This document shows, piece by piece, positions 12,001 to 15,000 of a DNA stretch of 36,452 bases. Each line of letters begins with the position of its first letter. Positions within the stretch are counted from its first letter, which is position 1. A program made the position numbers. This DNA is from Bdellovibrionia bacterium (GTDB lineage Bacteria; Bdellovibrionota; UBA1018), in NCBI GenBank assembly GCA_045805065.1, contig JBJMMA010000251.1, positions 1-36,452 of the forward strand, read 5' to 3'.

Positions 12001-15000
12001 CGAAGAAAGAAGAAGAGGCCCTTCAGCGCGAGATTGCTGAAGAGCTGGAGCGCGAGTCCGCGCAGACCAATCAGCTCGTTAAAGAAGATTTCTCTCCAAC
12101 GAACAGCACGCGTGAAAAGCTTGTTCTTGAGTACGCGCCACTGATCAAATACATCGCTCAAAAAATCGCGGCACGCCTTCCTGCCAATATTGAGCTCGAC
12201 GACCTGGTGAGCTCCGGCGTGATCGGCTTGATGGATGCGATTGAGAAGTATGATGCTTCTCGCGACAACAAGTTCAAGACCTATGCTGAGTTTCGTATTC
12301 GCGGCGCCATTCTCGATGAGCTTCGTGCTCAGGACTGGGTGCCACGCTCTGTGCGCGAGAAGGCAAAGCTTCTGGAGCGCGTTTACGCCAAGATCGAGCA
12401 GAAGAACGGTCGTCAGGCGACGGATGAGGAAGTCTGTGAAGAGCTCAAGATCTCACAGGACGAGTATCACGATCTTCTCAATCAAGTGAGAAGCGTCTCT
12501 CTTCTTTCTTACGACGATATCGCGAACTTTTCAAAAGCCGACAAGCGCTCGCTTCATGGCCTGGGCGAGGGGGGCTCTAAGTCTCCAACGCCGTTCAACG
12601 AAGTGAACGTCGCGTCCGTGAAAAAGTTGATCGCGTCCGCGATTCAGGATCTTCCTGAGAAGCAACGTCTCGTTCTCTCGCTTTATTATTACGAAGACCT
12701 CAACCTCAAAGAAATCGGCCGCGTTCTTGACGTGACCGAATCCCGCGTGAGCCAGCTTCATACGCAAGCGATCTTGCGCCTGAAGGGCAAGCTTCGGAAT
12801 CACTGGGACGAGTTCATCACGCTCTTTGGGTAAGCCCAAAAGCGCTTTCGCTCTTAAGGGCCAGGGCGGTAGAGATGCGCCTTTTGGATCTCTGCGCAGT
12901 AGTCCTGTAGTGCCTTTTCTTCTTCAGGGCTTCCAAAAGCGAACTTCACGCCAATACGGAAGTTGAACGCTTCGGTCGTGATGATGGCGCCGCATGCCGG
13001 TTGTTCCTGGCACCAGACGACGCATCCGGTGATTTGTATCTGGATCGGCTCGTCCAAGGTGATGACCACTTTGCATCCTGGGTTCATCGGCTCGGCGGCG
13101 TAGATTCCGATTCCGCTGGTGGATAAATCATTGAGGAGAACTCTGGCTTCAATGGTCTCGCCTTGCTCTCCGGTGGTGGTCGCTTGCACATGGGTTTCCT
13201 TGTTAGGAACGAGCCTCATCTGCGCGCGAACGCGTTTGAGATGGATCGGCCTCTTGAGCCGCTCCTGTTGACGTTTCTTCGCATTTTGAATTGCGCCTAC
13301 GCGCTGATTAGGTGCTTGCCACATACGTTCAGTAGTCCTGTTGCTAATAAATTAAGGATGTAGAACCATTATGGCGCAGCGCGTCCGCGCTGAATAGAGT
13401 GTCAGCGCGGACACGTGGCAAAGCAGCTTTAAATCATCGATATTTATACCAAATAGAGGCGGTATTAAATTTGGATTGCGAAACGAAGAGCGTAGCGACG
13501 GTCTTCGTATCCGCCTGCGTTCAAGGACATCTCTTCGCCATAGGTGGAGGCATCAATCTGGATGAACTTGAGATCGATTCCCAGGCCCGCGCAAGGGTAG
13601 CCTTGGTTGAGGCCTGCGCGCAGTGCGAAGATACTCAAATGCGTCTCACCACCCATATGGATCGTGCGATAGATGCTGCCATTGGTATTGTTGCCAAAGT
13701 CCGTGAACTCAAGCGCCAGGGTGGTGTTTTTGAGCACACCCATGGAGTCCTTTTCGGCTGCTACGCCAAAGTTGAAGGTACGAGGCTGCGAGGTAGGAAG
13801 GCTGGAAGGGGATGGGTTTCCGGCGGAATCCTTGATCGGCTTGAAACCGATGTTGGAGTACTTTCCGCCCAAGGCATTGTTGACCGCAAAGGCACCTGAG
13901 AAGTGCACTCCGGCCGGAGTGAAGTGGGTGAATTTGTATTCCATACCCAGATCAAGATCAGCGCCAGCGCCCTGGCCACCCGTCTTGGACGGTGCCAAGG
14001 ACTTGCCTTGGATCAGGTCAATGAAGGTAAAGCCCGTGTTGCTGGAGAGGCGATATTCGGCGTGGAGCGTGGTGCCGATCGAAAGTGAGTTGTCATCAAA
14101 GAACCTGCGTCCAACCGTGATGGCCGGACCGACATCCGTGATGGCCATAGGCTCGACATTGAAGCTTCGGCGAAGATTCACGTCAGACTGCGTGCTGGTC
14201 ACGACGGCGATCGCAAAGCCCCATTTGCCGTCTTGCCCTGGAGGCTTATAGAAGGCTGGGAAAGTGGTTTGCACGCGCGCATGGTAGTTGTCGCCCGCGT
14301 TGTCGCCTACATCCCGGTAAAAATCGGATCCGCCGTGAATCAGGCCCCCGACCGCTCCAGGAACGACAGACGATACTTCGACCATCGGATCAAGAAGCGT
14401 CACGCGCCATTCAGGATTATCCGTCACGCGAGCCGGGTTGAAGAAAAGGTTCTGATCATAAAGCCCGGTTGTGTAATTGACGTTACCCATGCCTTCGCCA
14501 CGGACGCTGGTGTAGGGGCGGAGGATCTGGTCTTGGGCCAGGGCCTGCAAGGAGGGAAGGGTGAGCAGGAGGGCCCAGGTTGCTGGAGCGAGTGCTGGTG
14601 AAAATTTGAATCTGCGAATCATCTTTGAGTTTCCTTGGGTAATTTCCTTGGGAGGTCCCTTGAACTAAAACGTGCCGACGCCCAGGCTGACTAGAGTCTG
14701 ACGGAAGCAGCGATCCACCGCTGCTGTTGTTCCGATCGTGGTCGAATTGGATCCGAGCCCTTGAGTGATGCTGCTGAAATCGTTCAAAGCGCTTGAAAAG
14801 CGTCCACCTGCTCCAAGCTTCGTCATGGCATCCAAGCTGATGTAGATCGCGTCGTAAAGCTGACGAGTAGATGCTTGAGCGTTTGTGGGTTGAGTGGTCG
14901 CATCGATGCTTGAAGTGTTTCTAACCAGCGTCGCTCCAGAAGGGGCGTCACAGCCGGCCGTAATGGCACACGCTGCCGCAGATGCTGCCTTGCAGCTTGG

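What a model noticed while it worked through the whole genome (the two positions that open the first line are those of the whole stretch)
13395..13420. Global operator TGTGTC-N6-GACACA upstream of about 50 mostly secreted-protein and c-di-GMP genes
The palindrome GTGTC-N6-GACAC occurs 16 times exactly (50 with one mismatch) in intergenic DNA, typically 50-160 nt upstream of start codons, before PilZ, FliA-like sigma, PP2C-cNMP, FeeM-PilZ, adhesin and many secreted-protein genes. It marks a global regulon of an unidentified regulator, conserved in the order.
Evidence so far: 16 observed vs 0.18 expected, 0 at spacers 3,4,5,7,8,10; one mismatch 50 vs 1-14 at other spacers; targets enriched for signal peptides p=0.002; site kept with free spacer before 8 of 25 pilZ orthologues and 2 of 4 PP2C orthologues; 24 of 41 order genomes, reversed-pattern control 0.
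(Added by a program. Inside this text positions count along the whole contig: contig position 1 is position 1 of the stretch shown here. "Call 12" and the like, gene names such as g00115 and contig names such as C1 are that model's own, and its searches are not shown. The text may have been shortened before it was handed on; [...] marks where a part breaks off. The agent that wrote the report below was given it as the finding of a first reader that could run no searches.)

Follow-up and report, generated by a model that had tools for sequence, protein, structure and literature searches.

The report
Global operator of NtrC-type regulator
A short palindromic DNA signal sits in front of some 50-70 genes, many for secreted enzymes and adhesins, in an uncultured order of Bdellovibrio-like bacteria, and comparative evidence points to a self-regulating two-component regulator of the NtrC family as the protein that binds it.

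Summary
The operator is real. GTGTC-N6-GACAC occurs 18 times exactly and 59 times with one mismatch in intergenic DNA, against 0-1 and 3-15 at other spacers; spacer 9 (6 exact) is a second motif. Spacers are free, and the motif is enriched only in this order.

The missing regulator is probably G000:C178:16265-17797 (receiver-AAA+-Fis HTH), third gene of an HDOD/PAS-kinase/regulator operon. A site lies before this operon in 29 of 35 scorable orthologous loci (background 4-6%), overlapping a sigma-28-type -10 box. The motif is enriched in 20 of 28 genomes with its DRSNFLR helix and in 0 of 16 others. Five rival HTHs fail this profile.

'No sigma-54 link' is wrong: 17 of 93 promoters carry a sigma-54 box (control 7.5), and 14 carry a sigma-70-type -10 that puts the site against -35 (control 3.9). 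The AAA+ domain was lost at least twice while the HTH stayed. Targets lean to secreted hydrolases and adhesins; c-di-GMP genes are a minority.

Binding and sign of regulation are inferred, not shown. No earlier scan note or paper on it was found.

The parts
13399..13414 (.). Operator GTGTC-N6-GACAC (exact), inferred position -53 to -38 of the pilZ promoter
   Evidence: kept with a different spacer in L001, L014, L031, L037 and scoring >=10 bits before 10 of 30 pilZ homologues including this one
13368..13373 (-). Putative sigma-70-type -10 hexamer CATAAT of pilZ, 25 nt downstream of the operator
   Evidence: read; CATAAT recurs upstream of several orthologues; offset fits the genome-wide 23-26 nt peak; promoter activity not shown
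13391..13396 (-). Inferred weak -35 hexamer (TATTCA), 17 nt from the -10 and 2 nt from the operator
   Evidence: position inferred from the -10; 3 of 6 match to TTGACA
12854..13324 (-). PilZ-domain gene, 156 aa, the target of the flagged site
   Evidence: Pfam PF07238 E 6.6e-10
11811..12833 (+). FliA-type sigma factor ending the flagellar export operon, convergent with pilZ; not a target of this site
   Evidence: Sigma70 r2/r3/r4; the name fliA is inferred from the flagellar context
13465..14622 (-). 385-aa gene of unknown family ending 50 nt upstream of the operator; synteny kept in other families
   Evidence: no Pfam or NCBIfam hit; homologues beside the site in L014, L031, L037
13380..13415 (.). 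14-nt inverted repeat (13380-13393 / 13402-13415) overlapping the operator; incidental or a decayed second site
   Evidence: absent in L001, where the operator is kept
29101..29116 (.). Second operator copy ATGTC-GATTGG-GACAC (one mismatch)
29209..30423 (+). FeeM plus PilZ-like gene downstream of the second site (start at 29209 or 29272), overlapping an NHL-repeat gene at 30420-33116
   Evidence: PF21926 E 1e-33; PF07238 below cut-off

Best explanation
GTGTC-N6-GACAC is the dimer-binding site of one transcription factor, most likely the NtrC-family response regulator G000:C178:16265-17797 (receiver, AAA+ with intact Walker A and GAFTGA, Fis-type HTH). It is encoded with an HDOD protein and a PAS histidine kinase that has no Pfam sensor domain other than PAS.

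Shown: the motif, its distribution, the promoter geometry, the conserved site at the regulator's own operon, and co-occurrence with the HTH.

Inferred mechanism: (1) a FliA-type (sigma-28) promoter transcribes the operon; (2) the regulator binds over that promoter's -10 box and damps its own synthesis; (3) after phosphorylation by the kinase it turns on a secretome regulon (three lytic transglycosylases, S41 and S8 peptidases, transglutaminase, 5'-nucleotidase, adhesins, a type IV pilin, PilZ and GGDEF proteins, a second FliA-like sigma). It would act as an enhancer at sigma-54 promoters (about a quarter of sites) and from a site abutting -35 at sigma-70-type promoters such as pilZ (about a fifth). 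The sigma-54-independent role would explain why several lineages dropped the AAA+ domain but kept the HTH.

Odds: TF operator 0.95; this protein 0.78; autorepression 0.65; activation at -35-abutting sites 0.5.
For: Operator-like: 78 of 79 spacers differ; only 2 of 79 sites lie between convergent genes, which hold about 14% of intergenic DNA. Order-limited: of 199 genomes outside the order only G183 exceeds 3 hits, and there the sites flank transposase-like ORFs.

Of 18 enhancer-binding-protein genes checked, only C178's operon has a site in its promoter. A site >=8 bits lies before the orthologous operon or stand-alone regulator in 29 of 35 scorable loci (55 fetched, 20 dropped for contig edges, Ns or unmatched N-termini), against 3.8% of all and 5.5% of sigma-28-type promoters. 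It follows the regulator where HDOD and kinase are gone (G145, G035). It sits in three registers (+5, +8, +10) against the -10 box, so it is not the -10 itself.

HTH region 53-95% identical in 34 of 36 order genomes outside families f2/f7, 37-44% in f2/f7, 47-51% in the sister order. G017 lacks the HTH, the HDOD gene and the motif. Motif count >=5 in 20 of 28 DRSNF-helix genomes and 0 of 16 others (on one search counts). Rival HTHs: C134 and C176 are conserved phylum-wide, including f2/f7; C193, C234 and C171 were not found in many motif-rich genomes.

Promoter geometry. The -10 peak survives correction for window choice (14 against a maximum of 12 in 150 controls). AAA-less forms are not one clade, p-AU 1.9e-5, and G083 has the AAA-less form with 16 hits.
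Against: No binding or expression data.

8 of 28 DRSNF genomes have fewer than 5 hits (G145, G208 and G265 have 0), though several keep a site at the operon or at pilZ.

The negatives are not clean: site-like scores of 10-15 bits occur near the operon promoter in G030, G036 and G131, which carry the diverged helix. The helix change in f2/f7 is modest (DRANLLR).

The autoregulatory site shares bases with the conserved -10 box, which inflates its conservation. Kin are not independent, and the L111-L165 loci overlap the G panel.

Only 5 of the 17 other enhancer-binding proteins, and no regulator of another family, were profiled. 40 of 73 sites have neither promoter type. Tandem sites, usual for NtrC-type enhancers, are rare. 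Gene starts and signal peptides come from my own crude scripts.
Confidence: 0.72

Rival explanations
1. The operator belongs to another regulator (an untested enhancer-binding protein, or an XRE/DUF4423, TetR or other family); the HDOD operon is only a conserved target.
For: The genome holds 20 HTH_3 hits over the cut-off and 12 unprofiled enhancer-binding proteins; a DUF4423 gene is among the targets. A site lies before a type IV pilin gene, and PilR sites are described with TGT-N11-AGA and GTCT elements (PMC6058289, passage).
Against: The site moves with the regulator gene when the rest of the operon is lost. The PilR-like protein's HTH is poorly conserved and was not found in 5 of 5 f10 genomes, all motif-rich. 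No CRP-type HTH of note was found (two weak hits). G017 lacks both regulator and motif.
Confidence: 0.15
2. The protein is C178, but it acts mainly as a repressor or Fis-like architectural binder; the promoter spacings reflect occlusion, not activation.
For: The site overlaps the -10 box at its own operon and ends 13 nt before the sigma-54 box of the second FliA-like gene. Receiver and AAA+ domains are both degenerate in G006, G010, G021, G145 and G035. Caulobacter NtrC both activates and represses at 51 sites (10.1101/2023.06.06.543975, passages).
Against: Sites at sigma-70-type promoters stop just upstream of -35 and do not cover the core elements. Walker A and GAFTGA are intact in G000 and in many orthologues.
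Confidence: 0.09
3. The motif is part of a promoter recognised by an alternative sigma factor, or a REP/IS-derived repeat, not a transcription-factor site.
For: GTGTCCGA abuts the sigma-28 -10 at the HDOD operon. Other top intergenic palindromes of this genome are REP-like. In G183 and G032 matches belong to repeated elements.
Against: It is a symmetric palindrome with free spacer and flanks, unlike the REP-like repeats, whose flanks are near-identical. There is no genome-wide sigma-28 overlap, and it takes variable registers against the -10.
Confidence: 0.04

Closest known systems
NtrC-family enhancer-binding response regulators with dyad operators, e.g. Myxococcus NmpR (GCGCA-N5-TGCGC; PMC11841059, passages)
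   Same: Receiver-AAA+-HTH layout, 5-bp half-site dyad, a site at the promoter of its own operon, sigma-54 boxes downstream of part of the sites.
   Different: Different sequence and spacer; mostly single sites, not tandem; 50-70 sites; most have no sigma-54 box; its own promoter is sigma-28-type and is overlapped by the site.
Atypical enhancer-binding proteins acting at sigma-70 promoters: Vibrio VpsR (site -31 to -52, proposed class II activator), TyrR, HupR, HsfA, PhhR, and Brucella NtrX (PMC6158489, passages)
   Same: Site immediately upstream of -35 (inferred -53 to -38 at pilZ). [quoted passage not shown] The TyrR box TGTAAA-N6-TTTACA has the same geometry (recalled, not from a call).
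   Different: Those proteins lack or alter GAFTGA; the G000 protein keeps Walker A and GAFTGA, and only some orthologues have lost or eroded the AAA+ domain.
Caulobacter NtrC (10.1101/2023.06.06.543975, passages)
   Same: NtrC-type protein with dozens of sites, both activator and repressor.
   Different: It lacks GAFTGA, serves nitrogen assimilation and has a different motif.
PilR of Pseudomonas and Geobacter (PMC6058289, passages)
   Same: NtrC-type regulator; 54 predicted loci in Geobacter, many before pilus, flagellar and cell-wall genes; one site here lies before a type IV pilin.
   Different: The pilR-position gene here (C234, after pilB/pilT/pilC-like genes by my reading of their sequences) has a poorly conserved HTH that does not track the motif.
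FliA attack-phase regulon of Bdellovibrio bacteriovorus (TTAAG-N16-CCGATA; PMC3627812, passages)
   Same: The regulator's operon has a promoter of this consensus (14.2 bits).
   Different: The HDOD gene and the HTH were not found in the three genomes of other classes tested for both, and the motif is not enriched outside the order.

Membership tests
NtrC-family bacterial enhancer-binding response regulators | Receiver domain with phospho-acceptor Asp and an adjacent histidine kinase | tested here: met
   PF00072 E 2.5e-29; PAS-HisKA-HATPase gene directly upstream; D in MITDLKMPG
NtrC-family bacterial enhancer-binding response regulators | AAA+ domain with Walker A and GAFTGA loop | tested here: met
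   PF00158 E 4e-64; GESGTGK and GAFTGA in G000; absent or eroded in several orthologues
NtrC-family bacterial enhancer-binding response regulators | C-terminal Fis-type helix-turn-helix | tested here: met
   PF02954 at 23.3 bits, over cut-off, but 19.6, under cut-off; the model has helices 433-455, 460-466 and 471-480 at pLDDT about 90; NtrX HTH match
NtrC-family bacterial enhancer-binding response regulators | Operators upstream of sigma-54 promoters | tested here: inconclusive
   Enriched 2-3-fold but only at 20 of 73 sites; the second motif reaches 26 of 46
NtrC-family bacterial enhancer-binding response regulators | Tandem enhancer sites for oligomer assembly | tested here: not met
   Only 11 secondary hits >=4 bits within 70 nt around 79 sites
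NtrC-family bacterial enhancer-binding response regulators | Direct binding to the operator and ATP-dependent activation | not testable with these tools
   needs EMSA, footprinting and in vitro transcription
Atypical (sigma-54-independent) EBPs: VpsR, TyrR, NtrX, HupR | Loss or alteration of GAFTGA or Walker motifs | tested here: not met
   Intact in G000; met in orthologues G083, G033, G010, G006, G021 (no AAA+) and G039, G145, G035 (eroded)
Atypical (sigma-54-independent) EBPs: VpsR, TyrR, NtrX, HupR | Site abutting the -35 of sigma-70 promoters | tested here: met
   14 of 101 pairs against 3.85+-1.9; holds after matching and window correction; a minority of sites
CRP/FNR family | CRP-type HTH protein in the genome and TGTGA-N6-TCACA geometry | tested here: not met
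   Two weak partial PF13545 hits, one over cut-off; half-sites offset by one base from the CRP consensus (consensus recalled)
REP/BIME extragenic repeats | Copies share spacer and flanks | tested here: not met
   78 of 79 spacers distinct; flank information <=0.12 bits beyond the outer T

The most novel reading that the evidence does not exclude
One enhancer-binding response regulator with an intact AAA+ domain acts as a second-tier master switch below FliA in an uncultured order of predicted predators. It represses its own sigma-28 promoter, activates sigma-54 promoters as an enhancer and activates sigma-70 promoters from a class II position, all through one operator. Because the last mode needs only the HTH, the AAA+ domain has been lost more than once while the regulon persisted. 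That would be a natural series showing a sigma-54 activator turning into a sigma-70 regulator, and its targets would be a candidate list of prey-attack enzymes and adhesins.
Probability: 0.33. Interest if true: 0.72.

Novelty: new variant of a known kind. Interest (0 to 1): 0.55.

Why it matters
Apart from FliA, little is known of the transcription factors that run the secretome of Bdellovibrionota, and my searches found nothing on gene regulation in class UBA1018 (Bdellonasia). This finding gives a named regulator, a 16-bp site and about 70 candidate targets that can be tested with one purified protein and synthetic DNA. It also offers orthologues with full, eroded and absent AAA+ domains that keep the same recognition helix. 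These make the proposed path from sigma-54 enhancer proteins to sigma-70 regulators directly testable.

Tried and rejected
Genome-wide overlap with sigma-28-type promoters: not enriched (3 of 101 overlapping against 1.8 control at 9 bits).

A spacer-5 variant motif in families f2/f7, suggested: rejected, 1-3 hits per genome against 0-3 in the other 13 genomes searched.

PilR-like C234, GlrR-like C193, C171, C134 and C176 as the cognate protein: their profiles do not match.

The hairpin at 13380-13415 as the functional element: not conserved.

Matches outside the order: the one in G124 lies inside a coding region, those in G183 flank transposase-like ORFs.

Myxococcota and other distant HTH hits (L166-L190) have no site >=8 bits upstream, though several starts there were poorly placed.

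C134 autoregulation by the second motif: site-like hits upstream in only 3 of 12 loci.

Expression: no RNA run was listed.

A recalled Desulfovibrio motif (GTGT-N8-ACAC) could not be confirmed: PMC4641369 gives its motifs as figures and the text search found no such string.

Literature searches without a description of this motif or regulator. Earlier-finding look-ups by sequence and by words returned nothing. Supplements of the papers were not opened and may hold motif tables that bear on the comparison.

Full report
Observation. The window holds GTGTC-AGCGCG-GACAC at 13399-13414, 74 nt upstream of a PilZ gene on the minus strand, and a one-mismatch copy at 29101-29116 before a FeeM-PilZ gene. 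In the whole genome (4.2 Mb, 262 contigs) the pattern occurs 20 times exactly. With my own gene calls (3894 genes), 18 are intergenic, and 59 are intergenic with up to one mismatch. Spacers 0-15 otherwise give 0-1 and 3-15, except spacer 9 with 6 exact sites. Expectation from half-site frequencies is 0.23. A weight matrix shows 1.2-1.7 bits at each of the ten core bases, 0.35 at the outer T/A and almost none in the spacer; at 11.5 bits it finds 79 intergenic sites, 78 with distinct spacers, and only 2 between convergent genes. The matrix was trained on the same sites, so the fair size estimate is the excess of about 50 in the mismatch count, up to about 70.

Lineage and spread. Named loci with the closest pilZ and regulator homologues are uncultured Bdellovibrionota, including records titled UBA1018 and FG-1. 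PMC13200544 (passages) places FG-1 in class UBA1018, proposes the name Bdellonasia, and predicts a predatory lifestyle. Among 40 relatives plus G000, 25 of 41 have 6 or more exact sites; the reversed control gave 0-6. In 250 genomes across the phylum, the 11-base pattern is enriched in the window's order only. Of 199 genomes outside it, one (G183) exceeds 3 hits, and those flank transposase-like ORFs (family identity recalled, not tested). Inside the order, families f2 and f7 are at background.

Targets. Pfam on 67 of the 82 genes next to sites of at least 13 bits outside C251 and C178 (the top 40 of 50 regions) gave three SLT lytic transglycosylases, S41 and S8 peptidases, a transglutaminase, a 5'-nucleotidase, OmpA, a type IV pilin, Ig/NHL/beta-helix/RCC1 repeat proteins, PilZ, FeeM, a FliA-like sigma factor, PP2C-cNMP, a kinase and a DUF4423 protein. 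33 had no hit, and in divergent pairs the true target is unknown. A GGDEF gene and the HDOD operon on C178 add to the list. An N-terminal hydrophobic stretch is present in 46 of 98 genes behind a site against 465 of 1603 others (p=0.0004), and in 22 of 39 unambiguous targets.

Promoters. The genome has one rpoN and about 18 enhancer-binding proteins. A sigma-54 matrix trained on promoters without the motif hits 20 of 96 promoter-site pairs against 7.6+-2.6, and 17 of 93 against 7.5+-2.7 after removing promoters with the spacer-9 motif and matching for signal peptides. A sigma-70-type -10 hexamer begins 20-29 nt after the site in 14 of 101 pairs against 3.85+-1.9; the spacer-9 motif shows 3 of 66 against 2.4. 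I chose that window; taking the best 10-nt window in controls gives a mean of 7.3 and a maximum of 12 in 150. This spacing puts the site just upstream of -35, centred near -45, as at pilZ (CATAAT at 13368-13373). Of 73 sites, 20 have the sigma-54 box, 13 the -10 and 40 neither. Sigma-28-type promoters, whose learned consensus resembles TTAAG-N16-CCGATA of B. bacteriovorus (PMC3627812, passages), are not enriched genome-wide. They do begin 0-2 nt after the site at 3 of 31 loci in G032, G083 and G187.

The regulator. Among the enhancer-binding proteins, only the operon on C178 (HDOD, PAS histidine kinase, receiver-AAA+-HTH) has a site in its promoter, 4 nt before the first start codon and across the -10 of a 14.2-bit sigma-28-type promoter. 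The same site is found before the orthologous operon, or before the regulator where it stands alone, in 29 of 35 scorable loci of 55 fetched; background is 3.8% of 1756 promoters and 5.5% of 127 sigma-28-type promoters. It takes three registers against the -10 box. The HTH region is 53-95% identical in 34 of 36 order genomes outside f2/f7 (one partial, one not found), 37-44% in f2/f7 and 47-51% in the sister order. The recognition helix is DRSNFLR in the first group (DRSNYLR in G021), DRANL in f2/f7 and SRPNLCR in the sister order. Twenty of 28 first-group genomes have 5 or more hits, against none of 16 others. G017 (93% complete) lacks HTH, HDOD gene and motif. In 35 genomes each, C134 and C176 stay 69-100% identical across most of the phylum, f2/f7 included, which shows that f2/f7 are not simply diverged. 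C193, C234 and C171 were not found in many motif-rich genomes.

Against this assignment: 8 of the 28 have few sites; G030, G036 and G131 have site-like sequences near the operon despite the changed helix; the site shares bases with the -10 box; kin are not independent; and 12 enhancer-binding proteins and all other families were not profiled.

Domain loss. The G000 protein keeps Walker A and GAFTGA. Its model (pLDDT 86) matches NtrC1 and NtrX best, and NtrX is the only solved match to the HTH alone. Orthologues in G083, G033, G010, G006 and G021 are 230-256 aa without the AAA+ domain; those in G039, G145 and G035 are eroded. On a tree of receiver plus HTH columns (24 rows, G021 left out for lack of a receiver), the four AAA-less rows are rejected as one clade (p-AU 1.9e-5; long branches present). 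G083 keeps 16 hits.

Mechanism. Shown: the operator, its position classes, the conserved site at the regulator's operon and the co-occurrence. Inferred: FliA-type transcription of the operon, negative feedback by occlusion of the -10, and activation of secretome genes at sigma-54 promoters and at -35-abutting sites. The last is by analogy with VpsR, whose site at -31 to -52 is proposed to act as a class II activator site (PMC6158489, passages). A role in prey attack rests on the target list and on the FliA attack-phase link in B. bacteriovorus; it is the weakest step.

Comparison and verdict. The system works like an NtrC-family regulon with a dyad operator and a site at its own operon (NmpR, PMC11841059, passages). 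It departs from the family in single sites, mixed sigma use and repeated AAA+ loss. It is not a member of the atypical GAFTGA-less group in G000. Five literature searches (listings and abstract openings only) and two look-ups of earlier scan notes found no description. I rate it a new variant of a known kind: real, now testable, not a new class of mechanism.

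Noticed in passing
G000 genome-wide, e.g. C176:17562, C134:8173, C237:11592, C245:5660: A second global operator, (C/G)TGTCTAA-N3-TTAGACA(G/C), 49 intergenic sites. 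Strongly tied to sigma-54 (27 of 63 pairs against 5.4) with helical phasing at 47-51, 61, 68-73, 80-82 and 92-94 nt. An exact strict form is found in 28 of 51 genomes, including other classes. It shares 5 promoters with the N6 motif.
   Followed up: partly
G000:C176:17627-19210 and orthologues L290-L297: An AAA+-HTH protein whose HTH is 74-100% identical in 35 of 35 genomes. Sites like the second motif (12-16 bits) lie just upstream of its start in 5 of 8 orthologous loci. Best candidate for the second motif's regulator; C134 is the alternative.
   Followed up: partly
G032 loci L007, L011, L012, L015, L017, L018: A repeated cassette carrying a site like the second motif, an N6 site and a sigma-54 box 88 nt away, in near-identical copies: a mobile promoter module.
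   Followed up: no
G032:C1:207235-207384 (L088) and G032:C2 (L101): Two copies of the regulator: one in the HDOD operon with a changed helix and no site, and one reduced to a 62-aa HTH frame behind an eroded AAA+ remnant, with the canonical helix and a 9.8-bit site over its promoter.
   Followed up: partly
G000 C139:12741-15043: A second FliA-like sigma gene with a strong sigma-54 box starting 13 nt after an exact N6 site, divergent from a PP2C-cNMP gene.
   Followed up: partly
G000 C234:12426-12462: A GTCAA-N4-TTGAC box, like the FlrA/FleQ-type repeat quoted in PMC4641369, lies next to an N6 site before the type IV pilin gene; 8 such intergenic boxes exist against 0.5 expected.
   Followed up: no
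G000 intergenic DNA, many contigs: Three REP-like palindromic repeat families with near-identical flanks: cores GTGAC-N5-GTCAC (21), GCGGC-N3-GCCGC (35) and AAAGG-N9-CCTTT (39).
   Followed up: partly
window 15982-16566: IS200-like Y1 transposase hit (PF01797), possibly a RAYT-type protein linked to the REP-like repeats.
   Followed up: no
window 21903-26380: Two HTH-DUF4423 genes, each followed by an overlapping gene of unknown family.
   Followed up: no
window 13465-14622 and 14665-15555: Two genes without a Pfam family, conserved in order next to pilZ and fliA in other families.
   Followed up: no
L169, L171, L188: Regulators from records titled Pseudomonadota, Rhizobacter and Roseateles with a similar helix (DRSNFLRLA) but no N6 site >=8 bits upstream.
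   Followed up: no
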